Below are positions 44,285 through 64,000 of a stretch of 64,000 nucleotides of DNA, piece after piece; within the stretch, counting starts at the first letter, position 1, and the number at the start of each line of letters is the position of its first letter. The notes under the pieces are model-generated. The model ran no database searches. It was not told the origin of the DNA and saw nothing but the letters and a program-made list of their open reading frames with translations. Both the position numbers and the translations under genes were made by a program. The DNA is from Candidatus Binatota bacterium (GTDB lineage: Bacteria > Desulfobacterota > Binatia > UBA1149), in contig DUBO01000050.1 of NCBI GenBank assembly GCA_012960245.1, forward strand, positions 38,039-102,038, given 5' to 3'.

Positions 44285-44310
44285 AACAATTACCAAACTT
44301 AGACACAGGG

Positions 44311-45816: not shown

Positions 45817-46073
45817 ACGAGCCCGGCGTGAACGAGGACCGGGGCGGCTCGCTCAAGGCCCTTGGACTTGGCTGGAGCCTGGGCTGGCGCGTGGTGGCCG
45901 GCGCCCTGCTGGGCTACCTGGCCGATGCTTACCTGGGCAGCGGGCCCTGGCTCGCGTTGTTGGGTGGGCTGGGGGCAATGGTAAGCGGCGTGCGCAACAT
46001 GCTATCCGTGTTGGGCCCCGACCCTGCGCAGGATTCATCGCTGGACCCGGGGTCGAGCGATGAAGGCACTTGA
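45813..46073 (+). CDS. atpZ: AtpZ/AtpR-like small membrane protein (putative F0F1 ATP synthase accessory subunit)
   Basis: GTGA overlap with the hemL stop. Two predicted TM helices (LGLGWSLGWRVVAGALLGYLADAYLG...LALLGGLGAMVSGV). Position immediately upstream of atpI-atpB-atpE. Confidence 0.55.
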   Translation: MNEPGVNEDRGGSLKALGLGWSLGWRVVAGALLGYLADAYLGSGPWLALLGGLGAMVSGVRNMLSVLGPDPAQDSSLDPGSSDEGT

Positions 46074-46485: not shown

Positions 46486-46487
46486 CC

Positions 46488-48405: not shown

Positions 48406-48462
48406 CGTTATCTATTCCTGCGCGCTGGGCGGCGTCAGCACAAGTGGCGGCCGCCCGGCGGG

Positions 48463-49605
48463 CTATTTCTTGAGCAGGTTGCGGGCGATCACCATGCGCT
48501 GGATCTGCGAGGTTCCCTCGTAGATCTGCAGCAGCTTGGCGTCACGCATGAGTTTTTCTACGGGGTACTCTTTCATGTAGCCGTAACCACCAAAAATCTG
48601 CACGGCGTTTATCGCGATCTGCATGGTACGGTCGGCGCCGAAAGCCTTGGCGTAACTGGCCACTATCGAGGCCGGTTCACCCTGGTCTATGCTCCAGGCC
48701 GCTTTCCACGTGAGCAGGCGCATGGCTTCCACTTCTATGGCCATGTCGGCGAGCATGAACTGTATGGCCTGGAAGTTGGCTATGGGCTCGCCGAACTGCT
48801 TGCGCTCGAGCGCGTAGTCACGGCTCTCTTCGAGTGCCCGCCGGGCGATGCCGATACACATGGGGCCTATCTGCGGCCGCGTGCGGTCGAAGGTCTGCAT
48901 GGCTATGCGGAAGCCCTCGCCCTCGTTTCCCACGAGCGCGTCGAGGGGCACCCGCACCTGGTCAAAACTGATTTCGGCCGTATCCGAACAGCGCTGGCCC
49001 AGTTTGCCTGTCATCTTGGTGGTCGTCACGCCGGGCGTGTCGGCCGGCACGACGAAACAGGCGATTCCGCCGTGGCGTTCCGAAGCGTCACGGGTGGCGA
49101 ACACCGTGAACCAGTCTGCCTCGGTGCCGTTGGTTATGAAGTGTTTCACTCCGTCGAGTACGAAGTGGTCGCCGTCGCGCTTGTAGCGGGTCGTCATGCC
49201 GGCCACGTCGGACCCCGAGCCAGGTTCGGTCAGGGCGTAACCGGCAAACTTGAAATCGCTGCAGAGGCTGCCCAGGAAGCGCTGCTTCTGCTCTTCACTA
49301 CCGGCTATGAGCAGAGGCGTGGAGGCCAGCCCGTTGGCCGTCATTATGGTACCGACGCCCGAACAGCCGAAGTTGATTTCTTCCATCACCACGACCGCGT
49401 CGAGCACGCCGAGGCCCACGCCACCGTACTCGGCCGGGATCTCGAGGTTCATCAGGCCAACGTCCCAGGCCTTGCGCAGAACTTCCGTCGGAAACTCCTC
49501 GGCCTCGTCGTATCGGCCCGCTACGGGAATGATTTCTTTGGCCGTAAAGTCTCTCGCGGTTTCGCGTAACTGTTTCTGTTCGTCGGTCAGGTCAAAGGCT
49601 ATCAA
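48463..49605 (-). CDS. acyl-CoA dehydrogenase
   Basis: 380 aa. ...YALTEPGSGSDVAGMTTRYKRDGDHFVLDGVKHFITNG..., QIFGGYGYMKEYPVEKLMRDAKLLQIYEGTSQIQR. Confidence 0.85.
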   Translation of the reverse strand: MIAFDLTDEQKQLRETARDFTAKEIIPVAGRYDEAEEFPTEVLRKAWDVGLMNLEIPAEYGGVGLGVLDAVVVMEEINFGCSGVGTIMTANGLASTPLLIAGSEEQKQRFLGSLCSDFKFAGYALTEPGSGSDVAGMTTRYKRDGDHFVLDGVKHFITNGTEADWFTVFATRDASERHGGIACFVVPADTPGVTTTKMTGKLGQRCSDTAEISFDQVRVPLDALVGNEGEGFRIAMQTFDRTRPQIGPMCIGIARRALEESRDYALERKQFGEPIANFQAIQFMLADMAIEVEAMRLLTWKAAWSIDQGEPASIVASYAKAFGADRTMQIAINAVQIFGGYGYMKEYPVEKLMRDAKLLQIYEGTSQIQRMVIARNLLKK

Positions 49606-53465: not shown

Positions 53466-54410
53466 GTGCTAGCCCTTGTTCTCGATAATTCCCTCGTGCG
53501 CTTGCAGCGCGGCCGGGACCGCCCCCTTTCGGGGGATGGCCTCGTAAGGGTGCGTACCCGCATAGGGGGCATATGCAATACCGACCTTGAGCTGGCCCGC
53601 GGTTACATGGGATTCGAGGGTGTGCTGGGGCACGAGTTCGTGGGCGAGGCCCTCGACGGCCAGCTGGCCGGCGCGCGGGTGGTGGGGGGAATCAATTTTT
53701 CCTGCCACGATTGCGCTACCTGTCGCGGCGGAAACCCCAGGCATTGTCCCCGGCGTACCGTGCTCGGCATCCAAGGTGCCGACGGGGTGTTTGCCGAGGA
53801 GTTTCTCATACCCGAGCGCAACCTTTCGCTGGTGCCCGACGGCGTGAGCGACGAGCAGGCCGTTTTTACCGAGCCGCTGGCCGCTGCCTGCCAGCTGGTG
53901 GCGCAGCTGGCAGGAGAAGTGCCGCCGACGGCGCTGGTGATGGGCGACGGCAAGCTCGGCTTGCTGCTGGCCCAGGTGCTGGCGGCCAACGCTTGCAGGG
54001 TGGAGCTCGTGGGCCGGCACCTCGACAAGCTCGGCTGGCTGAGGGATTCAGGTGTCAGCCTGGTCGAAGAGTTGCAGCAGGGTAAGACCTGGCCGTTGGT
54101 CGTGGAGGCCACCGGCAGTCGCGAAGGGCTGGAGGCCGCTCTGCAGGTTACAAGTCCGCGGGGAACGCTGGTGCTTAAGACTACCGTTGAGGGTAGTCAC
54201 GAGCTGAACCTGGCCCCGGTGGTTATCAACGAGATCACGATACTGGGTTCCCGCTGTGGCGCGTTTGAGCCGGCGCTGGAGCTTCTCGAGCGCGGCCTGG
54301 TCCAGACCGATCCAATGATCGGTGGGCGCTACGGGCTCGACGACGGCGAGAAAGCCTTTGAGCGTGCGGCCTGCCGCGGCGCCGGCAAAATACTGATCGA
54401 GGTGGGTTGA
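53466..54410 (+). CDS. zinc-dependent alcohol dehydrogenase (MDR family)
   Basis: GICNTDLELARGYMGFEGVLGHEFVGEA and the ...CHDCATCRGG structural Zn motif. Rossmann-fold region LVMGDGKLGLLLAQVL. Confidence 0.8.
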   Translation: MLALVLDNSLVRLQRGRDRPLSGDGLVRVRTRIGGICNTDLELARGYMGFEGVLGHEFVGEALDGQLAGARVVGGINFSCHDCATCRGGNPRHCPRRTVLGIQGADGVFAEEFLIPERNLSLVPDGVSDEQAVFTEPLAAACQLVAQLAGEVPPTALVMGDGKLGLLLAQVLAANACRVELVGRHLDKLGWLRDSGVSLVEELQQGKTWPLVVEATGSREGLEAALQVTSPRGTLVLKTTVEGSHELNLAPVVINEITILGSRCGAFEPALELLERGLVQTDPMIGGRYGLDDGEKAFERAACRGAGKILIEVG

Positions 54411-55597
54411 TGGATTTCGGTTACAGCGACGAGCAGGAAGTTTTCCGCGGCCGGCTGCGCAAGTGGCTCGAACAGTGCGGCGAAGACGGTTCTATTCCCC
54501 GGCTGAAGGGATTGGGCCTGGACGAAAAGGTCGCCGTGGGCAGGGTCTGGCAGAAGCGCTTGTATGAAGGAGGTTGGTGCGGGCTTTCCTGGCCCGCGGA
54601 GTACGGCGGGCAGGGGATCGGTATTGTCGAGCAGATAATTTTTCAGGAAGAGCTGGCCCGCGCGGGTTCGCCGCAGCTGGTCAACCTGCTGGCCCTGAGT
54701 ATGGTCGGTCCGATGATCATCGAGCATGGCAGCGAAACCCAGAAAAAACGCTTCCTGAAGTCGATCCTCAACGCCGACGAAATCTGGTGCCAGTGTTTCA
54801 GTGAGCCGGGCGCCGGTTCGGATCTCGCTTCGTTGTCCACCCAGGCCGAACTCGACGGTGACGACTACCTGGTAAATGGCACCAAGGTGTGGACCTCGTA
54901 CGCGCAGTACGCCGACTACTGCATCCTGCTCGCGCGTACAGATCGCGGCACGAAACCGCACGAGGGTATCACCATGCTGATCGTCGACATGAAGAGCGAT
55001 GGCGTCCAGGTGAGGCCCCTACGCCAGCTCAACGGCGACAGTGAGTTCAACGAGGTATACCTGGAGAACGTGCGTGTTCCGCGGTCGGGGGTCATAGGCG
55101 AGCCGGGCGGTGGCTGGAAGATGGCGATCGCCATGTTGATGCACGAGCGTGCGACGCTTACTTTCCAGAGGCAGTTACAGTCGCGCGTTGCGCTGGACGA
55201 CATGCTGAAGTTTGCCCGTGACTTTGACCACGGCAAGGGGGCGCCGGCCGATGATCCGGTCTACAGGCAGCGCCTGGCCCAGGCCTGGATAGAAAGCGAA
55301 GCCATACGGCTGACCTCGCTGAGGCACCTGACCCGGCGTCTCAAGGGCGACCCACCCGGCGCCGAGGGATCAATGGAAAAGCTGTTCTGGAGCGAGATGT
55401 ACCAGCGCATGCTGGCCGTGCCGATGTCGATGTCCGGCCCTTACTCGATGCTCTCCGGGGAGGATCCCAGGGCACCGCTGGCAGGCCAGTGGCCCGAACT
55501 CTACCTCTACTCTCGCGGGCGCACGATCGCCGCGGGCACCTCGGAGGTGCAGCGCAACATCATCGCCCAGCGCGTGCTGGGCATGCCCCGTTCCTGA
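54410..55597 (+). CDS. acyl-CoA dehydrogenase family protein
   Basis: TGATG coupling to the ADH. ...CQCFSEPGAGSDLASLSTQAELDGDDYLVNGTKVWTS...; C-terminal ...GTSEVQRNIIAQRVLG. Confidence 0.8.
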   Translation: MDFGYSDEQEVFRGRLRKWLEQCGEDGSIPRLKGLGLDEKVAVGRVWQKRLYEGGWCGLSWPAEYGGQGIGIVEQIIFQEELARAGSPQLVNLLALSMVGPMIIEHGSETQKKRFLKSILNADEIWCQCFSEPGAGSDLASLSTQAELDGDDYLVNGTKVWTSYAQYADYCILLARTDRGTKPHEGITMLIVDMKSDGVQVRPLRQLNGDSEFNEVYLENVRVPRSGVIGEPGGGWKMAIAMLMHERATLTFQRQLQSRVALDDMLKFARDFDHGKGAPADDPVYRQRLAQAWIESEAIRLTSLRHLTRRLKGDPPGAEGSMEKLFWSEMYQRMLAVPMSMSGPYSMLSGEDPRAPLAGQWPELYLYSRGRTIAAGTSEVQRNIIAQRVLGMPRS

Positions 55598-55608: not shown

Positions 55609-56103
55609 TCAGGCAGTTTTGCGTATGCGGCGCCGCTCGCGTTTGGGGTTGATGCTGTGGCGACGTCCGTTGACGCGTCGGAAAGGGAAACGGTAGACCT
55701 GTCCCTCGACGCCGGCCAACCTGGCCCGGTCACGCCAGGTCTCCAGGCCCCTGCGAAGGTAGTCGGGCTCCATGTCCAGCGCCTGGCAGATACTCTCAAA
55801 CGAGAAGGCCCAGTCCATGTCTTCCGAATCCAGCCATGAGTCGACCGCGGCTTCGTCTTCAGAGGGCGGCAGCGGGATGCTGCCACCGCGGAAGACGTTG
55901 CGTTGGAACGAGGCGATCGCGTCTTCGAGCACGGCGAGCATCAGGCGTTTTTCCGGCACGAGCGAGGACTCGTCAAGGGGGTGGGTAAAGAACTGGGCGG
56001 GGCTCACCGTGTCAGGTTCGACCATGGTAAGGGCCGGGTCTTCTATGCATACGGTGCGTGATTTTCTCGGCTCAACGGTCTCGGTTTTTTGCTGCTCACT
56101 CAT
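55609..56103 (-). CDS. small acidic hypothetical protein (164 aa), paralog of CDS 12831-13244; last gene of the merR/diiron operon
   Basis: AAGGAG-N6-ATG. Shares VEPDTVSPAQFF...EKRLMLAVLEDAI..FQ...WLDSEDMDWAFSFESICQALDMEPDYLRRGLETWR with the 137-aa protein. Basic C-terminal tail (KRERRRIRK). Confidence 0.65.
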   Translation of the reverse strand: MSEQQKTETVEPRKSRTVCIEDPALTMVEPDTVSPAQFFTHPLDESSLVPEKRLMLAVLEDAIASFQRNVFRGGSIPLPPSEDEAAVDSWLDSEDMDWAFSFESICQALDMEPDYLRRGLETWRDRARLAGVEGQVYRFPFRRVNGRRHSINPKRERRRIRKTA

Positions 56104-56151: not shown

Positions 56152-57231
56152 TCAGGCCACTAGCGATGTCTCGGCTTGGGCTTCGGTGTTGTACTCGTTC
56201 ACCAGCGCTGCCGGGTCGGCGAACTCTTCTTCAGACGAGGGCATGCTCTCGAACTCGAGGATGTCGAGTTCTTCGAATCCCCTTCTCAGCTTGTCGTTGA
56301 GCAGCCCGAGTTTCTTGACGTTGGGTACGATCTTGGAAAACATCGCGCGGCGGAAGGCCTTGGACATTTCGTCGTGATATTCGATCTCAACGCAGGCTTC
56401 GACGTCCATGCCCATCTTCTCGTAGACCTCGCGCTGCAGCAGTCGATCGCGCATCAGGCGGCAGCCTTCGTAGACAAATTCCACGCGCTCGTCGACCTCT
56501 GCCTCGCTCAACTCGCGGTAGTAGTCCTTCAGGCTGAGTACGCCGAAGGCAACATGGCGCGACTCGTCTTTCATGACCATGGCCGTGAGTTCCTTGATCA
56601 GCGGCTCGGTGCTGTAGTCACGCATGGTCTGGAAGGCGGCCAGCGCCAAGCCCTCCACGAGTATCTGCATGCCGAGGTACTTCATGTCCCAGCGTGAGTC
56701 GCTGAGAATCTGGTCGAGGAGGGTCTTGAGCTCCGGGTTTATCGGGTAGACGATCTCGATCTTTTCATGCAGGTAACGGTCGTAGACCTCCACGTGACGG
56801 GCTTCGTCCATGACCTGGGTCGCCGCGTAGAGTTTTGCGTCTATGTTGGGCACCGAGTCCACGATCTGCGCGGTTGCCAGCAGGGCGCCCTGCTCACCGT
56901 GCAGAAACTGCGAGAGTGTCCACGCCATCGACTCGTGGTTGAGTTGGACTTTCTCGCGCTCGGTGAGACGGGTCCAGTGCGAGGTGCCGGAAATGGCTGT
57001 TTCTTCTACCGGGAAAAAAGGCTTTTCCGGGTCAACGTCGATTGACCAGTCGAGGTAGGTCTCGCCGTCCCACTGTGCCTGCTTGGCCATGCGGTAGAGC
57101 CGCACGAGGTCACCGCGCAAGTGATCGTAGTCCGCTAGAAAGGCGCTGTCGTAGCTGTGGGCCACGCTGTCGAAGGCCCGGGCTACCAGCGGCGGAGTGG
57201 TTTGGTCAGCGATTGTTTCTTTCCGGGGCAT
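56152..57231 (-). CDS. ferritin-like diiron-carboxylate oxygenase, AurF/CmlI-like (two EX29DEXRH motifs)
   Basis: HGEqgall...(29 residues)...MDEARHVEVY and VEGLAL...(29 residues)...KDESRHVAFG, i.e. two E-X29-DExRH half-sites as in p-aminobenzoate N-oxygenase-type diiron enzymes. Soluble, 359 aa. Acyl-ACP-desaturase-like is an alternative. Confidence 0.6.
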   Translation of the reverse strand: MPRKETIADQTTPPLVARAFDSVAHSYDSAFLADYDHLRGDLVRLYRMAKQAQWDGETYLDWSIDVDPEKPFFPVEETAISGTSHWTRLTEREKVQLNHESMAWTLSQFLHGEQGALLATAQIVDSVPNIDAKLYAATQVMDEARHVEVYDRYLHEKIEIVYPINPELKTLLDQILSDSRWDMKYLGMQILVEGLALAAFQTMRDYSTEPLIKELTAMVMKDESRHVAFGVLSLKDYYRELSEAEVDERVEFVYEGCRLMRDRLLQREVYEKMGMDVEACVEIEYHDEMSKAFRRAMFSKIVPNVKKLGLLNDKLRRGFEELDILEFESMPSSEEEFADPAALVNEYNTEAQAETSLVA

Positions 57232-57258: not shown

Positions 57259-58053
57259 TCAGTCGTTGGTACCCGTATTTTCAGTTTCGTTACCGAGCCT
57301 GATTTCCGCCATGGCGCGTAGTATCATCTTGCGCCTCAAGAGTGCCATGAACTGCTCGGCGTGCTTCATGGCGGCTATTGCTATTTCGGGCACGCGCTCG
57401 GGGTCGGAATGGTCGGTCACGCCCCGCGTGAAAATTTTGATTTCTTCGCGGGCGAGCTTTTCGAGCGCTTCCACGTAGATGGGCAGCGTAGTCTCGTAGG
57501 GGAACAACTCCGGTCCCATGCCGGCCTCGCGCATGGCCTGGAAGTTTTCGAGCAGCAGAAGGTCATCGCCCTCTACGCAGCTCACGCCTTCGCGTTGCAT
57601 GGGGGTGATGATTCCCAGGCGAACGCAGAAGTCGAAACGATCCCGGTCCACGCCGTAGCGGGCCAGGGCTTCTTCTACCGGCACCGGCGGCTGGTCGGGC
57701 GCGTAATGAATTTCTTCGTACAGTGTTCCCTCGATGCCCAGCAGGGTGCTGACCTCGCGCTCGCTCACCACCTCGGAGTCGTGCTCGAGTATGGCCTTGA
57801 TGACGTCCAGGGGCAGGAAACGCTTCTGCTGCAGTTCCTTGATCACGCGGATGCGCTCAATAAACGAGTGATCGTACCAGGCCATGTTGCGTCCGGTCTT
57901 CACCGTGGGTTTGGGCAGAAGGCCTTCGCGGATGTAGAATTTTATGGTGCCGGTAGACACGCCGGTCTCGCGCGCGAGATCGGAGATCTTGTGCAGGCCC
58001 GTGGTGCTCGGGTGATTGTCGGTGTCGGTGTCGGTGTTTCTGGTTCTCGTCAT
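57259..58053 (-). CDS. MerR-family transcriptional regulator with long C-terminal domain
   Basis: HTH LHKISDLARETGVSTGTIKFYIREGLLPKP...WYDHSFIERIRVIKELQ (MerR N-domain). TDTDTD repeat at the N-terminus. The ~170-aa C-terminal domain has no B12 motif. Confidence 0.75.
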   Translation of the reverse strand: MTRTRNTDTDTDNHPSTTGLHKISDLARETGVSTGTIKFYIREGLLPKPTVKTGRNMAWYDHSFIERIRVIKELQQKRFLPLDVIKAILEHDSEVVSEREVSTLLGIEGTLYEEIHYAPDQPPVPVEEALARYGVDRDRFDFCVRLGIITPMQREGVSCVEGDDLLLLENFQAMREAGMGPELFPYETTLPIYVEALEKLAREEIKIFTRGVTDHSDPERVPEIAIAAMKHAEQFMALLRRKMILRAMAEIRLGNETENTGTND

Positions 58054-58216
58054 GGTAAGTAGAAAGTGCGACTATCCACTTACTATAACCAGGGCATGGC
58101 TGTCAAGGGATTTCTCGGAACGGCAGAACTTTTTTTTCCGGGCCAAAAACGGCTGGGAACCAATAAAATACTGGCCTTTTTGACAATTCACCCTTTGCCG
58201 AGCAGTCTGCTCGCCA

Positions 58217-59857
58217 GTGTCTGAGTCGTTTCAGCCAGCTCCAGAAACGGCCCCCCCGACCAGGGGGGAGCGTCTTGGCCAGGCGGCCGAGGGCTGCTTT
58301 GACCTCGTCGTGGTGGGCGGAGGGATCACCGGCGCGGGGGTCGCCCGCGAGGCGTCGGCCCGTGGATTATCTACCCTGCTGCTCGACCGTGGAGACTTTG
58401 CCGGGGGCACCAGCAGCCGTTCGTCCAAGCTCATTCACGGCGGTATACGCTACCTCGCCCAGGGTGACGTAGCCCTGGTGCGAGAGGCTTCGCGCGAGCG
58501 CGCGGTATTGCACCGCATGGCTCCGCACCTGGCCGTGCCCATCAACGTTGTTTCGCCCGCGCGATCGAAAGCCGGCTTGGCCAAGCTGGCAACCGGCATG
58601 TGGACCTTCCGCCGATTGTCGGCCGACGGTGAAGATTACAAGGTGCTGGGGTCACGCCAGACGGTTGAGTTTGAGCCCTTGCTGGCCGATCGCGGCATCG
58701 CTGGCTCGGTGGTGTTTCGCGAGTACCTCACCGATGACGCGCGCCTGGTACTCGAGACGGTGCTGAGCGCTGCTGATTCTGGCGCGGTGGTTCTCAACTA
58801 CACCGAAGTCACAGGTATAGAGATGGGAGAGGCTGGCGCCATGCTGTCGGCCCGCGACGTACTGGGAGCCGACGACCTGGTGATCAGGGCGCGCTGCGTG
58901 GTAAACGCTGCCGGCCCCTGGTTCGACGAGGTGGCCGGACTCGCCGACGCTTCGCAGCGGCCCCGCCTGCAGTTGACCCGGGGTATTCACGTTGTGGTCA
59001 AGGGCGAGGCCCTGCCGTTGGCGAGCATGCTGGCCTTGCGCACGAGCGACAATCGCACCGCGTTTGCGCTTCCTCGAGGCGGCGCGTGCTACGTGGGGAC
59101 GACCGACACGCTCTACGAGGGCGACCCGGCCGAGCCCGATATCGAGGGTGCCGACGTTGCCTACCTGCTCGACGCGGTCGAAGAGACACTCGGTTTGCGC
59201 TTGCGGGCCGACGACCTGCTCGGTTGCTGGGCGGGGGTGCGGCCGCTCATGGCATCGCCCGGTCGCAAGGTGTCGGAGATATCGCGGCGCGACGAGCTCA
59301 GTAGCGGCCCCGGTCCGCTGGTGTCGATAGCTGGTGGCAAGCTGACGACCTTTCGCCGCATGGCCGAAAGGGTCGTTGACGCCGCTGTCAAACAGGCCGA
59401 CCTGAAGCCGAGTGCCGGGCCGCCGGGCGACACGCCGTTGGTGGGAGGCAGCGCTGACCAGCAACTCGAGGCCCGGGCCTGCGCTGTCGGCCTCGAGGAC
59501 AGCGAGCTAGAGCAGCGTTTGTGGGCTGTCTACGGCGCCCGGGCCCCGGGGCTACTGCGCTGTATCGCCGATGACCCCGCCCTGGGCAGAGCCGTGGGCG
59601 GTCTCAAAGACCTGACCCTGGCCGAGCTCGAGCACTGCGTTGAACAGGAAATGGTGCTCACCCTCGATGACCTGTTGCGACGCCGTGTGCGCACTGCGAT
59701 GTTCGACGCCGAGGCGGCCATGGCTGCTGCGCCCGAGGCCGCTCGTGCGCTGGCGGTGAGATTGGGCTGGGACGATGACCGGCGGCGGCGGGAAGTGGAC
59801 GTTTTTGTCTCGAGAACCCGTGCCCAGCTTTCTGCGGCGCGCGACGCAGCAAAATAG
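58217..59857 (+). CDS. glpD: FAD-dependent glycerol-3-phosphate dehydrogenase (GlpD-type)
   Basis: FDLVVVGGGITGAGVAREASARGLSTLLLDRGDFAGGTSSRSSKLIHGGIRYLAQGDVALVREASRERAVLHRMAPHLA, near-collinear with the E. coli GlpD N-terminus. Confidence 0.85.
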   Translation: MSESFQPAPETAPPTRGERLGQAAEGCFDLVVVGGGITGAGVAREASARGLSTLLLDRGDFAGGTSSRSSKLIHGGIRYLAQGDVALVREASRERAVLHRMAPHLAVPINVVSPARSKAGLAKLATGMWTFRRLSADGEDYKVLGSRQTVEFEPLLADRGIAGSVVFREYLTDDARLVLETVLSAADSGAVVLNYTEVTGIEMGEAGAMLSARDVLGADDLVIRARCVVNAAGPWFDEVAGLADASQRPRLQLTRGIHVVVKGEALPLASMLALRTSDNRTAFALPRGGACYVGTTDTLYEGDPAEPDIEGADVAYLLDAVEETLGLRLRADDLLGCWAGVRPLMASPGRKVSEISRRDELSSGPGPLVSIAGGKLTTFRRMAERVVDAAVKQADLKPSAGPPGDTPLVGGSADQQLEARACAVGLEDSELEQRLWAVYGARAPGLLRCIADDPALGRAVGGLKDLTLAELEHCVEQEMVLTLDDLLRRRVRTAMFDAEAAMAAAPEAARALAVRLGWDDDRRRREVDVFVSRTRAQLSAARDAAK

Positions 59858-59887
59858 AACAGCGGCGCTGAGCTGTGGAGACGAGCT

Positions 59888-61297
59888 ATGACTGAACAGG
59901 TAGAAGGGCTGGACAAGCTGGCGGCCGACGCTCCCGGTCTCGAAATAGTGACCGAGGGCGAGCTGCTCGAGGAAACCGGCCGCGACACCTGGATGCGCAG
60001 TCTCATGCAGGCACGCGCGAGTGGGCGCGAACCGCGGGCGGGGGCGGTGCTCAGACCCGGCAACACCGCGGAACTTTCGGCAGCCCTGCGCTGGGCCGGG
60101 GAGACCGGCACACCGGTGCTGCCCTACGGGCACGGCTCGGGCGTGTGTGGCGGCGTGTTGGCGTCGGCGGGTAGCGTGGTAGTCGACCTGCGGCGCATGG
60201 ATGCCGTGCTCAATATAGACGACGTTTCGTTGAGGGCGACCGTCCAGGCTGGCGTGCGGGGCTCCGACTTTGAGGCTGCTCTCAACGAGCGCGGTCTGAC
60301 GATGGGGCACTGCCCGCAGTCGATCGAGATTTCGAGTGTCGGCGGTTGGTGCGCCACGCGCGCCTCGGGCCAGTTCTCTACCCTGTATGGAAACATCGAG
60401 GATATGTTGCTGGGCTGCGAGTTCGTACTGCCCGGGGGCAGGGTACTCAGGCTGGCCAGTTCCACCCGTTCGGCCACCGGCCCCGATCTTAAGCACATGT
60501 TGATGGGCAGCGAGGGCACACTGGGCATATTCAGCGAGCTTACTTTCCGTGTGCATCCCTTGCCTGACTGCAGGCGCGGCCAGGCCTTCACCGTGCCCGA
60601 TTTTGCCGCTGGCGTGGAATCACTCAGGCTGATAATGCGCGGGGGGTGGCGGCCGGCGGTTACCCGCCTGTACGATGCGGCCGAAGCGGGTCGTCATTTT
60701 GCCGGCATGGCCGAGGGCGCACCTGCCCTGCTGTTTCTGAGCGAGGGGCCCGAGTCGCTCGTGCAGGCTGAGTCTGCGGCCATAGCCGCCATAGTGGAAA
60801 CGCAGGGCGGCACGCCGCGCGGCGAAGAGCCGGTTCTCAGCTGGATGGAGCACCGCAACCAGGTGCCCACTTTTGACTCCCTGCTCGACCAGGGGCTGGT
60901 GGCCGACACCATAGAGGTGGCCATTGCCTGGGACAGGCTTTCGGCCCTCTACGACGATGTAAGCAAAAAGGGCGGGGAGATAGAGGACATGCTCCTCATG
61001 TCGGGGCATGTTTCGCACTGCTATACCCACGGTGCGAATATTTATTTTACCTTCGTAGCGTCCCAGCCCGATCTCGAGCGAGGCCTGGAGATTTACGACC
61101 GGGCCTGGGAAACCACCATGCGCGCAGTTCACGAAGCGGGCGGCACGATCGCTCACCATCACGGCATCGGCCGCGTGAGACGCGGCTGGTTGAGAGCCGA
61201 GCTGGGCGAGGGCGTCGAGTTGTTGCGTGCCCTCAAGGACTCGTTGGACCCCGGGGGCATCATGAATCCGGGCGTGCTGCTGGAGCCCGCCGAATGA
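59888..61297 (+). CDS. FAD-linked oxidase (FAD_binding_4 + FAD-oxidase_C); alkyl-dihydroxyacetonephosphate-synthase-like with HHH motif
   Basis: RPGNTAELSAALRWAGETGTPVLPYGHGSGVCGG (FAD-binding PCMH). C-terminal GGTIAHHHGIGRVRRGWL...SLDPGGIMNPG. The HHHG(I/V)G(K/R) block is characteristic of AGPS rather than GlcD (GEHGIG). Confidence 0.65.
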   Translation: MTEQVEGLDKLAADAPGLEIVTEGELLEETGRDTWMRSLMQARASGREPRAGAVLRPGNTAELSAALRWAGETGTPVLPYGHGSGVCGGVLASAGSVVVDLRRMDAVLNIDDVSLRATVQAGVRGSDFEAALNERGLTMGHCPQSIEISSVGGWCATRASGQFSTLYGNIEDMLLGCEFVLPGGRVLRLASSTRSATGPDLKHMLMGSEGTLGIFSELTFRVHPLPDCRRGQAFTVPDFAAGVESLRLIMRGGWRPAVTRLYDAAEAGRHFAGMAEGAPALLFLSEGPESLVQAESAAIAAIVETQGGTPRGEEPVLSWMEHRNQVPTFDSLLDQGLVADTIEVAIAWDRLSALYDDVSKKGGEIEDMLLMSGHVSHCYTHGANIYFTFVASQPDLERGLEIYDRAWETTMRAVHEAGGTIAHHHGIGRVRRGWLRAELGEGVELLRALKDSLDPGGIMNPGVLLEPAE

Positions 61298-62763
61298 AAA
61301 CCGCGCTGCTCGCGCTCGACGCGGGCACCACCCAGATAAAGGCGGTTGCCTACGATGAGAAGGGCACGGTGCTGGCCCGCGCCGTGAGGCCGGTGACCAC
61401 CATTTATCCGGGGCCCGGGCTGGTGGAGCAGGACGCGTCGCAGGTGCTGGCCGCGTCGGTCGAGGTACTCACAGAGGTGCTGGGCCGGACGGGCGGCAAG
61501 GCCGAGGGAGTAAAGGCCCTGGGCATAGCCAACCAGCGGGGCTCGATAGTGGCCTGGGACTCGGTCAGCACGGAGCCCTTGTCGCCGATGATAAGCTGGC
61601 AGGACACGCGCGGGGCTGAGCGTTGCGAGCAGTTGCAGGCGGCCGGGTTTTTCGTGATGCCGGGGATGGCGGCGAGCAAGGCCGAGTGGATCATGGCCAA
61701 CATCGAAGCCGCGGCCACGGCAGCAGCCGCGGGCCGGCTGCGCATGGGAACGCCCAACTCCTGGTTGGTGGCAGGCCTCTGTGGAGGCTTGCACACCTGC
61801 GATCACTCCAACGCTTTTCCCAGCGGCCTGTACGACTTTGCCGATGGTGACTGGAGCGATGCCCTGCTGGTGGAGCTTGGCCTCGAACGCGCCATGTTAC
61901 CCGAGCTCGTAGACTCCAAGCTGGTGACCGGAGGCCTGCAGGCGGAACTGCTCGGTGCCCCGGTGCCGCTGGGCTGTACTTCGGCCGATCAGCAGGCCTC
62001 GTTGTTCGGGCTCGATTGCCTTGTTGAGGGCAGCGCCAAGTGCACGCTGGGGACCTCGGCTTCGGTCAATCTCAATACCGGGGGCAAGCTGCGGCTCGGT
62101 GGGCCGGGAACTTTTCCGCTGGTGGCCTGGAGAGAGGACGGCGTGTCGACTTACTGTATGGAGGGGCAGGTCCTCACCGCAGGCGAAGCCCTGCGTTGGG
62201 CGGCCACTGCGCTGGGCTTTGACGGTGGCCCGGCGGCCCTGGCAGCACAGGCCGAAACAGCCGACGATTGCGGGGGCGCCTGGATGATCCCTGCCCTCCA
62301 CGGCCTCGGTACTCCCTGGCAGAATGATGTGCAGGCCCAGCTGGGAGGGCTTTCGGCGGCCGTGGGTCGCGCGCAGCTCGCGCGCGCGAGCGTTGAAGGA
62401 GTGGCCCACCGTGTGGTCGATGCTGCCGAGGGGCTGTGGCAAACCCCCGGCGAGACGCTATCTACCGAGCCATTACCCCTCGAAGTGCTGCGGGTTGATG
62501 GTGGGGCCTCGAGCAGCGAGATGTTGCTACAGATGATCGCTGACTTTGCAGGCACGCGGGTCGAGCGCAGCAGTGATCTCGACGGTGGCGCCCGTGGCGT
62601 TGCCCTGATGGCGGCCGCAGCGGTGGGACTCGAGCTGGGCGAGGGCGGAGATGGCTGGTCGTTTGACCGGGCATTTGAACCCGCCCTGACCGAAGAGCGA
62701 AGGCTCGAGCAGCGCGCGACCTGGAAGGCTCGCGTGCAGGCCCTGGTCGAGGTCAGCAGCTGA
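61294..62763 (+). CDS. FGGY-family carbohydrate kinase (glycerol kinase-like)
   Basis: ALDAGTTQIKAVAYDEKGTVLARAVRPVTTIYPGPGLVEQDASQV...NQRGSIVAWD. C-terminal ...VDGGASSSEMLLQMIADFAG. Confidence 0.75.
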   Translation: MKTALLALDAGTTQIKAVAYDEKGTVLARAVRPVTTIYPGPGLVEQDASQVLAASVEVLTEVLGRTGGKAEGVKALGIANQRGSIVAWDSVSTEPLSPMISWQDTRGAERCEQLQAAGFFVMPGMAASKAEWIMANIEAAATAAAAGRLRMGTPNSWLVAGLCGGLHTCDHSNAFPSGLYDFADGDWSDALLVELGLERAMLPELVDSKLVTGGLQAELLGAPVPLGCTSADQQASLFGLDCLVEGSAKCTLGTSASVNLNTGGKLRLGGPGTFPLVAWREDGVSTYCMEGQVLTAGEALRWAATALGFDGGPAALAAQAETADDCGGAWMIPALHGLGTPWQNDVQAQLGGLSAAVGRAQLARASVEGVAHRVVDAAEGLWQTPGETLSTEPLPLEVLRVDGGASSSEMLLQMIADFAGTRVERSSDLDGGARGVALMAAAAVGLELGEGGDGWSFDRAFEPALTEERRLEQRATWKARVQALVEVSS

Positions 62764-62765
62764 CC

Positions 62766-63413
62766 GTGTCTATCCGCCTGCTGGTGTTCGATTGTGACGG
62801 CGTGCTGTTCGAATCAGGTGACGCCAACATCGGTTTTTATAACGAAGTGCTGCGCCGTGTCGGCGAGCCGGCGATGACGTCGGCGCTCGAAGAAAAATGT
62901 CACGCAATGTCTTCGCCCCAGTTCTTCGAAGTCTACTTCGCCGATCGTCCCGACATGGCTGCGAGGGTACGCGAGATGGCGATCGCTACCGACTACGAAC
63001 CGTTCTACTCGTTGATGCATCCCGCCCCGGGCCTGCACGACCTGCTCGACGCTTTGCGCGCCGAGGGTTACGACACGGCCATGGCCACCAACCGTGGCCG
63101 CACGGTGGGCCGTCTTCTCGAGCTTTTTGAGCTCGACAGTCGTTTTGATTTCAGCATCGGTACGCTCGACGTCGAGTTACCCAAGCCGGCTCCGGACATG
63201 CTGCTCAGTTGTCTCGAGCGTTTTGCCCTGGAGGCGCGTGAAGCCGTTTACCTGGGCGACCAGGACTGCGACCTCCAGGCGGCTACCGCTGCGGGGCTGC
63301 ATTTTGTGGGAGTCGGGCCGGTTGTCGCCCACGCACAGTTGAGTATTGAAGCTATCGGTGAGCTGCCCGGCCTGCTCACGCTGCTCAACGAGCCTGGCGG
63401 CAGCGCGACTTGA
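62766..63413 (+). CDS. HAD-superfamily hydrolase (phosphatase, PGP-like)
   Basis: LLVFDCDGVLFES (motif I DxDG), ...ATNRGR..., YLGDQDCDLQAA (motif IV). Confidence 0.75.
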   Translation: MSIRLLVFDCDGVLFESGDANIGFYNEVLRRVGEPAMTSALEEKCHAMSSPQFFEVYFADRPDMAARVREMAIATDYEPFYSLMHPAPGLHDLLDALRAEGYDTAMATNRGRTVGRLLELFELDSRFDFSIGTLDVELPKPAPDMLLSCLERFALEAREAVYLGDQDCDLQAATAAGLHFVGVGPVVAHAQLSIEAIGELPGLLTLLNEPGGSAT

Positions 63414-63478: not shown

Positions 63479-64000
63479 TCAGTCCCGGCCGTTGATACGG
63501 TTGATCAGCTCGCGCAGGCGGCCGTGACCCGAACGGTTGAAATCGAGTGCGAGGCGCGGCATTCCGGCCAGCTCGGGCTCGTCTGATTCCTCGGCAAAGG
63601 CTTCGCGCTGTTCGGGTGGCGAGCCCAGGATGTCGCTGAACTCGCGACCCAGCTCTGTCACCAGGCCCTCGTCGAGTCGCTGCTGCAGGCGCAGCACCAG
63701 GCGCGAGCCTACGTAGCGCGACGAGTGGTACACGCGGTAGAAACGGTTGATCTCGCGTAGCGCCGCTTCGCTGTCGTCGGTGACAGTGTAGAGCGAGAGG
63801 TCCTCTTTTGAAATCAGACCGCGCCTGAGCAGGTGCTCGCGGATGTACTTGTCCCAACTCTTCCAGTAGGTGCCGCCGGGCACGTCAAGATAGATCACGG
63901 GTACGAGCTGGCTCTTGCCGGTCTGTATCAGGGTGAGAGATTCAAAACTTTCGTCGTGGGTTCCGAAGCCACCGGGAAACAACACGATGGCCGATGACTC
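63479..64000 (-). CDS. LOG-family (TIGR00730 Rossmann-fold nucleotide-binding) protein with C-terminal extension; N-terminus beyond window
   Basis: ...SSAIVLFPGGFGTHDESFESLTLIQTGK... (PGGxGTxxE LOG motif). The frame stays open to the window edge. Confidence 0.6.
   Translation of the reverse strand, partial: ESSAIVLFPGGFGTHDESFESLTLIQTGKSQLVPVIYLDVPGGTYWKSWDKYIREHLLRRGLISKEDLSLYTVTDDSEAALREINRFYRVYHSSRYVGSRLVLRLQQRLDEGLVTELGREFSDILGSPPEQREAFAEESDEPELAGMPRLALDFNRSGHGRLRELINRINGRD

What the first reader, a model, noticed from the sequence alone, without database searches (positions are those of the whole stretch)
58217..63413. glpD - AGPS-like FAD oxidase (HHH motif) - FGGY kinase - HAD phosphatase cluster suggests ether-lipid or glycerol-derivative chemistry
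The FAD-linked oxidase ends with AHHHGIGRVRRGWL. The HHH block followed by G-I/V-G-K/R matches the catalytic histidine triad of alkyl-DHAP synthases, whereas GlcD/D-LDH enzymes have GEHGIG. It sits directly after a GlpD-type G3P dehydrogenase, which produces DHAP, and before a glycerol-kinase-like FGGY kinase and a HAD phosphatase. A Zn-ADH and acyl-CoA dehydrogenase pair lies just upstream, at 53466-55597. This is the gene set one would need to make or recycle alkyl-glycerol (ether) lipid precursors, as reported for myxobacteria.
Basis: partly seen in the sequence, partly recalled or inferred. Interest (0 to 1): 0.5.

Follow-up and report, generated by a model that had tools for sequence, protein, structure and literature searches.

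The report
AGPS-like flavoenzyme in glycerol-type operon
The gene is a real relative of the enzyme that makes ether lipids, but it belongs to a separate, widespread and uncharacterised branch that always travels with a kinase and a dehydrogenase, which points to the breakdown of a glycerol-like compound and not to ether-lipid synthesis.

Summary
Four tightly packed + strand genes encode a GlpD-like dehydrogenase, a 469-aa FAD enzyme with AHHHGIGRVRRGWL, a GlpK-like FGGY kinase and a HAD phosphatase. The AGPS resemblance is also real. Solved AGPS structures are the best sequence and fold matches. The catalytic Arg, Tyr and HHH are invariant or nearly so in 174 relatives. The His/Glu metal site of D-lactate/glycolate dehydrogenases is absent.

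The ether-lipid reading is not supported. The protein sits outside canonical AGPS (monophyletic in 200/200 bootstraps). It lacks the AGPS-specific N-terminal domain. It has no fatty-acyl reductase or acyltransferase partner, whereas all three bacterial canonical AGPS loci examined have both.

Instead, GlpD-like is adjacent in 58 of 71 loci and FGGY in 43, across many bacterial phyla and some archaea. The partner kinases have all lost the GlpK glycerol-pocket residues E84 and Y135. Relatives on annotated plasmids pair the enzyme with other kinase-plus-dehydrogenase sets, sugar transporters, ETF or lipid kinases.

Best reading (about 0.4): a catabolic or salvage module in which kinase and dehydrogenase make a substituted DHAP-type keto-phosphate and the flavoenzyme acts at its C1. 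No characterised member was found.

The parts
58217..59857 (+). GlpD-type FAD-dependent glycerol-3-phosphate dehydrogenase homologue (546 aa), first gene of the operon
   Evidence: Pfam DAO 5.6e-49 and DAO_C 5.3e-21. NCBIfam G3P dehydrogenase 297 bits, below the 360 cut-off. Best PDB match 3da1 G3P dehydrogenase, 8.9e-94. The residues I recall as the E. coli GlpD substrate site (R54, H233, T270, D272, R317, R332, K354) are kept in at least 44 of 49 family members. Adjacent to the AGPS-like gene in 58/71 loci.
59888..61297 (+). Short AGPS-like FAD enzyme (469 aa). Catalytic-type residues: R260 (nt 60665-60667), H374-x-S376-H377-x-Y379, Y386 (nt 61043-61045), H423-H425 (nt 61154-61162)
   Evidence: Pfam FAD_binding_4 + FAD-oxidase_C. 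Best PDB matches are AGPS 2uuu (1.6e-60) and 4bby (2.5e-54). AF2 model pLDDT 86.5; Foldseek top hits are AGPS, TM 0.88. Residue conservation in 174 relatives. Phylogeny.
61294..62763 (+). GlpK-like FGGY kinase (489 aa) with a remodelled acceptor pocket; its start overlaps the AGPS-like stop (ATGA)
   Evidence: Pfam FGGY_N/FGGY_C. NCBIfam GlpK 319 bits, below the 590 cut-off. 32-33% identical to E. coli GlpK. Keeps R83, W103, D245, Q246, but E84 is Gly, Y135 is Gly and F270 is Ser. 0/39 triad kinases keep E84 or Y135. Motif 'NQRGS' against 'NQRET'.
62766..63413 (+). HAD-IA family phosphatase (215 aa), last gene of the operon; present only in the window's closer relatives
   Evidence: Pfam HAD_2 8.8e-27. 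Only weak, sub-threshold NCBIfam matches, e.g. phosphoglycolate phosphatase 75 bits against a 180 cut-off. Found downstream of the FGGY gene in 15 loci (13 distinct) and.
57259..58053 (-). Divergently transcribed MerR-family regulator (264 aa), the likely regulator of the operon
   Evidence: Pfam MerR_1 1.1e-18. Same divergent position in 7 distinct related loci.
58054..58216 (.). MerR-glpD intergenic region with conserved divergent CTGTCAA ... TTGACA(G) boxes and a GTAAGT..ACTTAC inverted repeat next to the MerR start
   Evidence: Sequence. The same boxes are seen in 7 orthologous intergenic regions. Their function as promoters or an operator is inferred, not shown.
55609..56103 (-). Small conserved ORF (164 aa, no Pfam hit) that accompanies the MerR gene in close relatives
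   Evidence: 63-69% identical copies next to MerR in 9 distinct close loci (L001, L003, L006-L011). No Pfam family.
56152..57231 (-). AurF / R2-like ligand-binding-oxidase-type di-iron protein (359 aa), inserted between MerR and the small ORF; lineage-specific and probably not part of the core
   Evidence: Pfam AurF 4.3e-17. NCBIfam R2-like ligand-binding oxidase, sub-threshold. Present only in the window, L010 and L011.
53466..55597 (+). Zn-dependent alcohol dehydrogenase (314 aa) plus acyl-CoA dehydrogenase (396 aa) pair upstream; conserved only among close relatives, link to the operon uncertain
   Evidence: Pfam ADH_N/ADH_zinc_N and Acyl-CoA_dh_N/M/1. The ACAD recurs upstream in L001, L003, L007-L009 and L011; the Zn-ADH in L001, L009 and L011.

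Best explanation
The 469-aa protein belongs to a large, uncharacterised branch of the AGPS lineage, made up of short AGPS-like enzymes that include E. coli YgcU. This branch keeps the flavin/Arg/Tyr/His-His-His machinery that AGPS uses to activate C1 of a dihydroxyacetone-phosphate (DHAP) moiety. It lacks the AGPS-specific N-terminal domain that carries the gate-keeping helix. The operon most likely works as a catabolic or salvage module with the logic 'phosphorylate, oxidise, then act at C1'.

(1) The GlpK-like kinase has lost the residues that close around the distal end of glycerol. It phosphorylates a glycerol-type compound that is substituted or modified at the far end.
(2) The GlpD-like flavoenzyme oxidises the C2 hydroxyl and gives a 1-substituted DHAP-type keto-phosphate.
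(3) The AGPS-like enzyme enolises this ketone, traps it on flavin N5 as AGPS does, and expels or exchanges the C1 substituent, with water as the likely acceptor. This releases DHAP for central metabolism and a free alcohol or other leaving group.

The MerR regulator controls the operon. The role of the HAD phosphatase is unassigned.

Shown: gene content, operon structure, conservation of the gene trio, conservation of catalytic residues, phylogenetic position, and the absence of ether-lipid biosynthetic partners. Inferred: the order of reactions, the nature of the substrate, and that the outcome is C-O cleavage or exchange and not net oxidation. Because the partner is a soluble-substrate FGGY kinase and the lipid-gating domain is missing, the substituent here is more likely small or polar than a long alkyl chain.
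For: AGPS lineage: best sequence and fold matches are AGPS. R260 and HHH are 174/174 and Y386 is 173/174. The D-LDH metal ligands are replaced by Tyr and His. All AGPS-like sequences separate from GlcD/GlcE in 188-198/200 bootstraps.

Conserved module: GlpD-like is adjacent in 58/71 loci, FGGY in 43/71 and both in 40/71, across Binatia, Myxococcota, Chloroflexota, Acidimicrobiia, Caulobacterales, Sphingomonadales and Spirochaetota. Archaeal operons have the same trio. The genes are translationally coupled in the window.

Kinase is not a plain glycerol kinase: 0/39 partner kinases keep E84 or Y135, while R83, W103 and D245 are invariant and Q246 is kept in 38/39. They are 26-45% identical to GlpK, against more than 50% reported between authentic archaeal and bacterial GKs (PMC11962113).

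Convergent contexts in annotated genomes always supply a kinase plus a dehydrogenase that would create a keto-phosphate: GlpD-like + FGGY; GldA-type Fe-ADH/SDR + FGGY; PdxA-like + DUF1537 kinase; GlpD + DAG-kinase-family lipid kinase. All of these homologues keep the AGPS catalytic set.

In Paracoccus jeotgali the trio is followed by an aldehyde dehydrogenase, two enoyl-CoA hydratases, an Fe-alcohol dehydrogenase and a thioesterase. That is the kit expected for a released alcohol side chain. The window has a Zn-ADH and an ACAD upstream.

Chemistry: AGPS exchanges the C1 substituent of acyl-DHAP through a flavin adduct, with no net redox change (PMC3509576).
Against: No member of the short clade has been characterised, so the reaction is inferred from homology and context only. 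Some relatives are directly coupled to electron-transfer proteins: EtfB/EtfA immediately downstream in Enterococcus gilvus, ETF genes next to E. coli ygcU, and an Fe-S/CCG protein immediately downstream in archaeal loci. That suggests net redox chemistry, which AGPS-type exchange does not need. The residue equivalent to Dd R447, important for AGPS catalysis, is Asp here and varies across the family. A phosphatase in the operon is not explained by a route that ends in DHAP. Sugar-type transporters, LacI/RpiR regulators and a sugar-phosphate isomerase in relatives fit ordinary polyol catabolism, where the enzyme could simply be a second dehydrogenase or an isomerase. The roles I assign to the GlpK and GlpD residues rest on my memory of the structures, because the papers were not available.
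Confidence: 0.4

Rival explanations
1. The AGPS-like protein is a conventional redox flavoprotein dehydrogenase. It oxidises a phosphorylated polyol or hydroxy compound, or DHAP itself, and passes electrons to ETF, an Fe-S subunit, quinone or oxygen. The operon is then a two-dehydrogenase polyol pathway, for example a tetritol-like route analogous to EryA/EryB/EryC, or a pair of enzymes for opposite stereoisomers such as sn-glycerol-3-phosphate and sn-glycerol-1-phosphate.
For: EtfB/EtfA lie directly downstream of the homologue in Enterococcus gilvus. E. coli ygcU lies beside ETF (ygcQR) and FixCX-like ygcNO genes. An Fe-S + CCG protein follows the gene at +1 to +36 bp in six archaeal/Firmicutes loci. 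The other characterised families of this fold that matched (D-LDH, glycolate oxidase, D-2-hydroxyglutarate dehydrogenase, LctD) are dehydrogenases or oxidases. Relatives sit with sugar ABC/MFS transporters, LacI/RpiR regulators and a sugar-phosphate isomerase/epimerase. A HAD phosphatase fits sugar-phosphate metabolism.
Against: The metal-binding His/Glu residues of the D-2-hydroxyacid dehydrogenases are replaced by the AGPS Tyr/His set in every member. The GlpD-containing bacterial loci have no recurrent ETF or Fe-S neighbour. The archaeal Fe-S/CCG gene also lies next to a GlpA-type dehydrogenase and could be its GlpC-like partner. A second dehydrogenase does not by itself explain why a keto-forming enzyme always accompanies the AGPS-like gene.
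Confidence: 0.25
2. One reading: the enzyme is a true alkyl-DHAP synthase and the cluster makes or recycles alkyl-glycerol (ether-lipid) precursors. For example, lysophosphatidate is oxidised by the GlpD-like enzyme to acyl-DHAP, which is then converted to alkyl-DHAP.
For: The AGPS catalytic residues are conserved. JGI automatically names the family 'alkyldihydroxyacetonephosphate synthase'. The actinomycete relatives pair GlpD and the AGPS-like enzyme with a DAG-kinase-family lipid kinase. They group with canonical AGPS (182/200) and have an 81-85-residue N-terminal extension like that of canonical bacterial AGPS. Zn-ADH and ACAD lie upstream.
Against: The protein is outside the canonical clade (200/200). 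It has no N-terminal gating domain. No FAR, acyltransferase or alkyl-DHAP reductase occurs in the window or recurrently in 83 loci, whereas 3 of 3 canonical bacterial loci have them. Binatia and Deltaproteobacteria also possess canonical long AGPS. The family occurs in lineages not known for ether lipids, such as Caulobacter, Sphingomonadales and E. coli YgcU (my own knowledge). The partner kinase belongs to the FGGY family, whose known substrates are soluble sugars and polyols (family names).
Confidence: 0.1
3. It is an ordinary glycerol utilisation operon (GlpK + GlpD) carrying an unrelated accessory flavoenzyme, for example a D-lactate dehydrogenase that handles the methylglyoxal bypass from DHAP.
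For: The kinase and dehydrogenase are closest to GlpK and GlpD. PGAP names one partner kinase 'GlpK'. GlpR- and GlpP-type regulators occur near relatives.
Against: All partner kinases lack E84 and Y135, including the one named GlpK, and they score far below the GlpK equivalog cut-off. The flavoenzyme lacks the D-LDH metal site. No glycerol facilitator recurs among the neighbours. The strict conservation of AGPS residues argues for a specific reaction linked to DHAP.
Confidence: 0.1

Closest known systems
Canonical alkyl-DHAP synthase (AGPS/ADPS, EC 2.5.1.26): Dictyostelium 2UUU, guinea pig 4BBY, M. xanthus MXAN_1676 and long bacterial forms
   Same: Same two-domain VAO-type fold (TM 0.88). The same catalytic Arg (Dd R352/Cp R419), Tyr (Y508/Y578) and HHH loop, plus the shared H-x-S-H-x-Y motif with Dictyostelium. 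Sister lineage in the tree.
   Different: Only 29-35% identical. Lacks the N-terminal domain that carries the gate-keeping helix: about 35 residues against 84-130 in nearly all canonical forms. Dd R447/Cp R515 is not conserved. Never found next to FAR, acyltransferase or SDR, which flank canonical bacterial AGPS in 3 of 3 loci. Found instead with GlpD-like and FGGY genes.
E. coli YgcU and the ygc cluster (function unknown)
   Same: 33% identical over the full length (1e-80), similar size (484 aa), same R/Y/HHH residues, and it groups with the short clade (157/200). It is also encoded near an FGGY kinase (YgcE) and a dehydrogenase (SDR YgcW).
   Different: The ygc type has ETF (YgcQR) and FixCX-like genes and no GlpD. 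Its kinase is only 20% identical to GlpK. The same layout, with EtfBA directly downstream, is seen in Enterococcus gilvus.
Actinomycete GlpD / TetR / flavoprotein / lipid-kinase cluster (Streptomyces, Kitasatospora; from my memory also M. tuberculosis Rv2249c-Rv2252)
   Same: A GlpD homologue plus an AGPS-like enzyme plus a kinase. The same catalytic residues.
   Different: The kinase is a DAG-kinase-family lipid kinase, not FGGY. The flavoenzyme is about 530 aa with an 81-85-residue N-terminal extension and is sister to canonical AGPS (182/200). It is therefore more likely to handle a lipid.
GlcD / D-lactate dehydrogenase (LDHD) / D-2-hydroxyglutarate dehydrogenase family
   Same: Same Pfam domains and overall fold (TM 0.83-0.84). 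Some relatives have GlcF-like Fe-S/CCG or ETF neighbours.
   Different: 25-27% identity. The metal-ligand His is replaced by Tyr386 and 'GEH' by 'HHH'. It falls outside the GlcD/GlcE group in 188-198/200 bootstraps.
Kinase + GlpD-type dehydrogenase polyol routes (GlpK/GlpD; erythritol EryA/EryB/EryC) - my own knowledge of the pathway
   Same: The same 'FGGY kinase, then FAD dehydrogenase gives a keto-phosphate' logic. Novosphingobium adds a TIM-barrel sugar-phosphate isomerase/epimerase like EryC.
   Different: Those pathways contain no VAO/AGPS-type flavoenzyme.
Ether-cleaving systems that first create a ketone next to the ether carbon (lignin beta-etherase LigD then LigE/F) and alkylglycerol monooxygenase (AGMO)
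   Same: Works-like analogy only. Oxidation next to the ether carbon followed by nucleophilic displacement matches the proposed GlpD-like then AGPS-like steps. AGMO is described as the only known enzyme that cleaves the 1-O-alkyl bond (PMC7911779, PMC9192799).
   Different: No homology. LigE/F use glutathione, and AGMO is a tetrahydrobiopterin-dependent membrane oxygenase. Cleavage by the enzyme here is a hypothesis.

Membership tests
Canonical AGPS (EC 2.5.1.26) | VAO-type FAD-binding domain plus cap domain | tested here: met
   Pfam PF01565 + PF02913. AF2 model matches AGPS structures with TM 0.88.
Canonical AGPS (EC 2.5.1.26) | Catalytic Tyr (Dd Y508 / Cp Y578) | tested here: met
   Y386 aligns to it. 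Tyr in 173/174 family members.
Canonical AGPS (EC 2.5.1.26) | HHH loop (Cp H615-H617) | tested here: met
   H423-H425. 174/174 members.
Canonical AGPS (EC 2.5.1.26) | Active-site Arg (Dd R352 / Cp R419) | tested here: met
   R260. 174/174 members.
Canonical AGPS (EC 2.5.1.26) | Second catalytically important Arg (Dd R447; review PMC3509576) | tested here: not met
   Asp330 in the window. E/D/A/T in the short family, but Arg in Dd and in 10/11 canonical sequences. Variable in plasmid homologues.
Canonical AGPS (EC 2.5.1.26) | AGPS-specific additional N-terminal domain with the gate-keeping helix | tested here: not met
   About 35 residues precede the FAD domain, against 84-130 in canonical forms (one 530-aa metagenomic sequence has 55) and 48 in GlcD.
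Canonical AGPS (EC 2.5.1.26) | Placement inside the clade of experimentally supported AGPS (Dictyostelium, trypanosomatids, long bacterial forms) | tested here: not met
   The canonical clade is monophyletic in 200/200 bootstraps and excludes the window protein.
Canonical AGPS (EC 2.5.1.26) | Genomic association with fatty-acyl reductase and DHAP acyltransferase (bacterial operons) | tested here: not met
   None in the window and none among recurrent neighbours of 83 loci. Present in 3/3 canonical bacterial loci.
Canonical AGPS (EC 2.5.1.26) | Acyl-DHAP + fatty alcohol to alkyl-DHAP activity | not testable with these tools
   Needs an enzyme assay.
GlcD / D-LDH type D-2-hydroxyacid dehydrogenases | His/His/Glu metal site and the 'GEHG' motif | tested here: not met
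   Mouse LDHD 'NFH' against 'NIY', and 'GEHGIG' against 'HHHGIG'. E. coli GlcD has G-E-H at the HHH columns.
GlcD / D-LDH type D-2-hydroxyacid dehydrogenases | NCBIfam equivalog score | tested here: not met
   GlcD TIGR00387: 160 bits against a cut-off of 568.
Short AGPS-like (YgcU-like) clade, uncharacterised | About 465-495 aa with no N-terminal extra domain, and H-x-S-H-x-Y ... Y ... HHHG-I/V-G-x-x-R | tested here: met
Short AGPS-like (YgcU-like) clade, uncharacterised | Monophyly with YgcU and other short forms | tested here: inconclusive
   157/200 and 128/200, from NJ trees with only two outgroup sequences.
Glycerol kinase GlpK | FGGY fold with catalytic D245 and R83 | tested here: met
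Glycerol kinase GlpK | Glycerol-enclosing residues E84, Y135, F270 (roles from my memory of the E. coli structure) | tested here: not met
   Gly, Gly and Ser in the window. 0/39 partner kinases keep E84 or Y135.
Glycerol kinase GlpK | NCBIfam equivalog score | tested here: not met
   319 bits against a cut-off of 590.
Aerobic G3P dehydrogenase GlpD | DAO + DAO_C domains and conserved substrate-site residues (roles from my memory) | tested here: met
Aerobic G3P dehydrogenase GlpD | NCBIfam equivalog score | tested here: not met
   297 bits against a cut-off of 360.
HAD-IA phosphatase | HAD fold with the N-terminal DxD motif | tested here: met
   HAD_2 8.8e-27 and the sequence 'FDCDGVL'. No specific equivalog was reached.

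The most novel reading that the evidence does not exclude
The short AGPS-like enzymes are flavin-dependent 'C1-etherases/transferases' of substituted DHAP. Together with a dedicated kinase and a C2 dehydrogenase they would form a previously unrecognised pathway, widespread in bacteria and archaea, that cleaves glycerol ethers or other 1-O-substituted glycerols by running AGPS chemistry in the degradative direction. This would be an oxygen-independent alternative to alkylglycerol monooxygenase, which the literature describes as the only known enzyme for this bond. The actinomycete lipid-kinase version would handle true ether or acyl lipids.
Probability: 0.2. Interest if true: 0.85.

Novelty: new variant of a known kind. 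Interest (0 to 1): 0.6.

Why it matters
AGPS is the textbook example of a flavoenzyme that forms an ether bond without net redox change, and it is used as the marker gene for aerobic ether-lipid synthesis in genome surveys. This analysis shows a large sister group: at least 591 hits among species-representative genomes and 1,732 protein clusters. It keeps the catalytic residues but lives in completely different operons. Automatic pipelines already label it 'alkyldihydroxyacetonephosphate synthase', which would inflate predictions of ether-lipid capacity, for example in sponge-symbiont, marine or soil metagenomes. The family includes genes of unknown function in model organisms: E. coli ygcU and, from my memory, M. 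tuberculosis Rv2251 next to glpD1. Its constant pairing with a kinase and a keto-forming dehydrogenase gives a concrete, testable biochemical hypothesis. If the reaction turns out to be ether or ester cleavage at C1 of DHAP, it would be a new route for degrading glycerol ethers.

Tried and rejected
(1) GlcD/D-LDH identity: rejected on residues, HMM scores and trees.

(2) Canonical AGPS membership: rejected on clade, N-terminal domain, R447 and context.

(3) The first search with a 241-aa Dictyostelium fragment returned only truncated proteins. It was still useful for N-terminal lengths. A 426-aa query was needed to obtain full-length AGPS.

(4) My first tree script timed out. The first tree had weak support because it had few outgroups and partial sequences.

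(5) I first favoured a long-chain alkylglycerol 'etherase' pathway. I toned this down after annotated plasmid contexts showed sugar-type transporters, LacI/RpiR regulators and ETF coupling in relatives, and because FGGY kinases act on soluble substrates.

(6) I first read the archaeal Fe-S/CCG neighbour as proof of redox function. It is ambiguous, because it also adjoins a GlpA-type dehydrogenase and could be a GlpC-like partner of that enzyme.

(7) Literature searches for AGPS + glpD/glpK, ygcU/ygcE/Rv2251, bacterial alkylglycerol catabolism and Binatota ether lipids found nothing functional.

(8) The GlpD and mammalian AGPS structure papers were not held, and the AFDB fold library was unavailable.

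(9) Terminator and promoter scans were at background level.

(10) Two of my ad hoc clade definitions were wrong (0/200) and are ignored.

Full report
**1. Observation**

They translate to proteins with the following Pfam architectures:
- DAO + DAO_C (GlpD-type)
- FAD_binding_4 + FAD-oxidase_C
- FGGY_N + FGGY_C
- HAD_2

The 469-aa protein contains AHHHGIGRVRRGWL at residues 422-435. The junctions are a 30-bp gap, a 4-bp ATGA overlap and a 2-bp gap, so the four genes form one operon. A MerR-family gene (57259-58053) is transcribed divergently. The Zn-ADH and acyl-CoA dehydrogenase pair at 53466-55597 is also real. None of the four proteins reaches the NCBIfam equivalog cut-off of its nearest named family: GlpD 297 against 360 bits, GlcD 160 against 568, GlpK 319 against 590.

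**2. Is the flavoenzyme AGPS-like or GlcD/D-LDH-like?**

- *Sequence:* the best solved structures are Dictyostelium AGPS (1.6e-60, 208 bits) and guinea-pig AGPS (188 bits). D-lactate dehydrogenase (141 bits) and glycolate oxidase (134 bits) score clearly lower.
- *Fold:* an AlphaFold2 model (pLDDT 86.5) matches mammalian AGPS best (TM 0.88, E about 1e-40), with LDHD close behind at TM 0.83-0.84. Because the fold is shared, residues have to decide.
- *Residues:* the review PMC3509576 lists Dictyostelium R352, Y508 and R447 as important for catalysis, and describes an extra domain with a gate-keeping helix that is unique to AGPS. In the alignments R352, Y508 and the HHH loop correspond to R260, Y386 and H423-425.
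- *LDHD comparison:* where mouse LDHD has its metal-ligand His ('NFH') the window protein has 'NIY'. Where LDHD has 'GEHGIG' it has 'HHHGIG'.
- *Family-wide:* across 174 relatives, R260 and HHH are invariant, Y386 is 173/174, and the H-x-S-H-x-Y motif shared with Dictyostelium AGPS is invariant.

**3. It is not a canonical AGPS**

- The Dd R447 position is Asp in the window and E/D/A/T across the family, while it is Arg in 10 of 11 canonical sequences.
- Canonical bacterial AGPS fragments are about 50% identical to Dictyostelium over the FAD domain and carry about 92 residues before it. The window protein is 34% identical and has 35.
- *Tree with full-length canonical sequences* (Dictyostelium, Leishmania, Trypanosoma, Silvanigrella, Bdellovibrionales and others; NJ, 467 columns, 200 bootstraps):

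| Grouping | Support (of 200) |
|---|---|
| Canonical AGPS monophyletic | 200 |
| Short family plus E. coli YgcU | 157 |
| All AGPS-like versus GlcD/GlcE | 198 |

- Canonical proteins have 84-130 residues ahead of the FAD domain (one 530-aa metagenomic sequence has 55). Well-called short forms have 31-63, and GlcD has 48.
- The plasmalogen-origin study (bioRxiv 10.1101/2025.10.10.681575) kept only AGPS hits of 500-700 aa, so this family was excluded there by design.

**4. Gene neighbourhoods**

Three bacterial canonical AGPS loci all carry a PF01553 acyltransferase, a PF07993 fatty-acyl reductase and an SDR next to the AGPS gene. This matches the M. xanthus MXAN_1674-1676 operon described.

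The window's family is different:
- Three metagenomic contigs with 54-62% identical proteins repeat the four-gene cassette.
- A scan of species-representative genomes found 591 relatives, and the best 80 loci were kept.
- Of 71 loci with enough flank, 58 have the GlpD-like gene, 43 the FGGY gene and 40 both within 2.5 kb on the same strand.
- No other neighbour family recurs in more than 8 of 83 loci, and no FAR or acyltransferase is among them.
- The taxa include Myxococcota/'Deltaproteobacteria' MAGs, Binatia, Chloroflexota, Acidimicrobiia, Caulobacterales, Sphingomonadales, Spirochaetota and Symbiobacterium.
- Archaeal operons read AGPS-like, Fe-S/CCG, GlpA-type G3PDH, NOX, MOX, FGGY. PMC11962113 describes the GlpTk-NOX-MOX part but not the AGPS-like gene.
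- The rest of the window is the chromosomal origin region and contains no lipid-synthesis partner.
- The exact protein is deposited from marine MAGs labelled Deltaproteobacteria or Candidatus Binatota. NCBI names it 'FAD-binding oxidoreductase', and JGI names it 'alkyldihydroxyacetonephosphate synthase'.

**5. The partner enzymes**

*Kinase.* It keeps GlpK residues R83, W103, D245 and Q246. None of the 39 partner kinases retains E84 or Y135, and F270 is usually Met or Thr. The 'NQRE' to 'NQRG/S' change is visible in the raw motifs. These kinases are 26-45% identical to E. coli GlpK, whereas PMC11962113 reports that authentic archaeal GKs are more than 50% identical to bacterial ones. Even the Microbacterium partner that PGAP names GlpK has Ala and Val at these two positions.

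*Dehydrogenase.* The GlpD-like protein keeps the residues I recall as forming the E. coli GlpD substrate site.

The roles of these residues come from my memory of the structures, because the papers were not available.

**6. Annotated relatives** (plasmid collection, 34-40% identity)

All keep the R / H-x-S-H-x-Y / Y / HHH set. They fall into five context types:

| Type | Organisms | Layout |
|---|---|---|
| A | Novosphingobium | G3PDH, AGPS-like, FGGY, plus a sugar-phosphate isomerase/epimerase, MFS transporters and LacI |
| A | Paracoccus jeotgali | ABC transporter, G3PDH, AGPS-like, FGGY, aldehyde DH, 2 enoyl-CoA hydratases, TetR, Fe-ADH, thioesterase |
| A | Microbacterium | HAD, then AGPS-like, a membrane protein, 'GlpK', G3PDH |
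| B | Streptomyces, Kitasatospora (Streptomyces gives 19 of 60 records) | G3PDH and TetR, divergent from AGPS-like (about 530 aa) and a YegS/Rv2252/BmrU lipid kinase |
| C | Roseibium, Shinella, P. contaminans | LacI, AGPS-like, xylulokinase-like FGGY, sugar ABC transporter, GldA-type Fe-ADH, SDR |
| D | Enterococcus gilvus | AGPS-like, EtfB, EtfA, SDR, FGGY, with a G3P-responsive antiterminator; mirrors the E. coli ygc cluster |
| E | Methylobacterium | GlpR, then AGPS-like, PdxA-like dehydrogenase, DUF1537 acid-sugar kinase |

In a tree with these sequences, type B is sister to canonical AGPS (182/200) and has an 81-85-residue N-terminal extension. The remaining short forms, including the window's, group at 128/200.

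**7. Interpretation**

Every context has a kinase plus an enzyme able to oxidise a secondary alcohol to a ketone (GlpD-like, GldA-type, SDR or PdxA-like) alongside the AGPS-like enzyme. Together the first two would deliver a phosphorylated alpha-hydroxy- or alpha-alkoxy-ketone, that is, a DHAP-type molecule. AGPS machinery is built to activate exactly this kind of substrate at C1.

I therefore propose a catabolic or salvage module. The kinase phosphorylates a modified glycerol. The GlpD-like enzyme makes the substituted DHAP. The AGPS-like enzyme cleaves or exchanges the C1 substituent through a flavin N5 adduct and yields DHAP.

Supporting hints are the alcohol/aldehyde/enoyl-CoA genes that follow the trio in Paracoccus jeotgali and the Zn-ADH/ACAD upstream in the window. 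The logic resembles the lignin beta-etherase route (oxidise next to the ether carbon, then displace). That is an analogy from my own knowledge, not homology.

Because the kinase is an FGGY enzyme and the gating domain is missing, the substituent in this subfamily is probably small or polar. The actinomycete version with a lipid kinase is the better candidate for lipid substrates. Confidence is about 0.4.

**8. Rivals**

- *Conventional redox dehydrogenase (about 0.25).* ETF genes directly downstream in Enterococcus and beside ygcU, and Fe-S/CCG genes in archaea, argue that at least some members carry out net electron transfer. The enzyme could be an ordinary dehydrogenase in a two-dehydrogenase polyol pathway. 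The Fe-S evidence is ambiguous, because that gene also adjoins a GlpA-type dehydrogenase.
Clade, domain architecture and context speak against it.
- *Plain glycerol operon with an accessory D-lactate dehydrogenase (about 0.1).* The kinase pocket and the missing metal site contradict it.

**9. Novelty**

I found no paper that characterises any member or notes the AGPS-like/GlpD/FGGY association. Reviews state that AGMO is the only enzyme known to cleave the 1-O-alkyl bond (PMC7911779, PMC9192799).

The finding is best described as a new variant of a known kind: a sister clade of AGPS with conserved chemistry-defining residues but a different architecture and pathway context. A practical consequence is that automatic 'AGPS' labels on these roughly 465-aa proteins should not be taken as evidence of ether-lipid biosynthesis. 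For comparison, the sponge-symbiont survey used tBLASTn with M. xanthus Agps to infer such capacity.

Noticed in passing
window 35348-44320, with GC skew across 40000-46000: The window spans the chromosomal replication-origin region: dnaA (42923-44320, -), dnaN (41590-42714, -), gyrB (38877-41345, -), gyrA (36382-38865, -) and gpsA (35348-36376, -). Further left lie yidC, jag, mnmE, mnmG, parAB and ATP synthase genes. GC skew changes sign at about 42-44 kb.
   Followed up: partly
window 56152-57231 (-): An AurF / R2-like ligand-binding-oxidase type di-iron protein is inserted between the MerR gene and the small conserved ORF. It is present only in the window and in two related MAG loci (L010, L011; 74-77% identical). 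Its function and any link to the operon are unknown.
   Followed up: partly
window 58054-58216, and orthologous regions in L001, L003, L006, L007, L009-L011: The MerR-glpD intergenic regions share a CTGTCAA ... TTGACA(G) pair, which looks like divergent -35 boxes, and an ACTTAC element next to the MerR start. In the window this forms a GTAAGT-N17-ACTTAC inverted repeat, a candidate operator.
   Followed up: partly
L075, L076, L077 (archaeal MAGs), L039 (Firmicutes MAG): Operons read AGPS-like, Fe-S/CCG protein, GlpA-type G3P dehydrogenase, Pyr_redox_2 (NOX-like), a small protein, then a GlpK-like kinase. The published survey of archaeal glycerol operons (PMC11962113) describes GlpTk-NOX-MOX but not the upstream AGPS-like/Fe-S pair.
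   Followed up: partly
L089 (E. coli K-12 2897964-2899418, ygcU) and L095 (Enterococcus gilvus plasmid): E. coli YgcU is a member of this AGPS-like family (33% identical, with the HHH/Tyr/Arg residues). The E. coli ygc cluster and an Enterococcus cluster share AGPS-like + ETF + SDR + FGGY kinase + a GlpP-like antiterminator. This suggests a common pathway that has not been assigned.
   Followed up: partly
L096 (Streptomyces fungicidicus p1), L103 (Kitasatospora plasmid): Actinomycetes have G3P dehydrogenase and TetR divergent from a roughly 530-aa AGPS-like enzyme followed by a YegS/Rv2252/BmrU-family lipid kinase. This type is the closest sister of canonical AGPS (182/200). It appears to correspond to M. 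tuberculosis Rv2249c-Rv2252, which I state from memory and have not verified.
   Followed up: partly
L009 (CAXQPB010000048.1): A contig binned as 'Nitrosopumilus sp.' carries the complete bacterial-type cassette (small ORF, MerR, Zn-ADH, ACAD, GlpD-like, AGPS-like, FGGY, HAD). Its proteins are 52-67% identical to those of the window, which suggests the contig was mis-binned.
   Followed up: no
window 46035-47225 (-) and 48091-49569 (+): Two long ORFs (396 and 492 aa) near the origin have no Pfam match at E <= 0.001. I did not check whether they are real genes.
   Followed up: no
window 63479-63985 (-): A LOG / 'possible lysine decarboxylase' family gene lies convergent to the HAD gene. The same neighbour follows the cassette in L001 and L003, so synteny extends beyond the operon in close relatives.
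   Followed up: no
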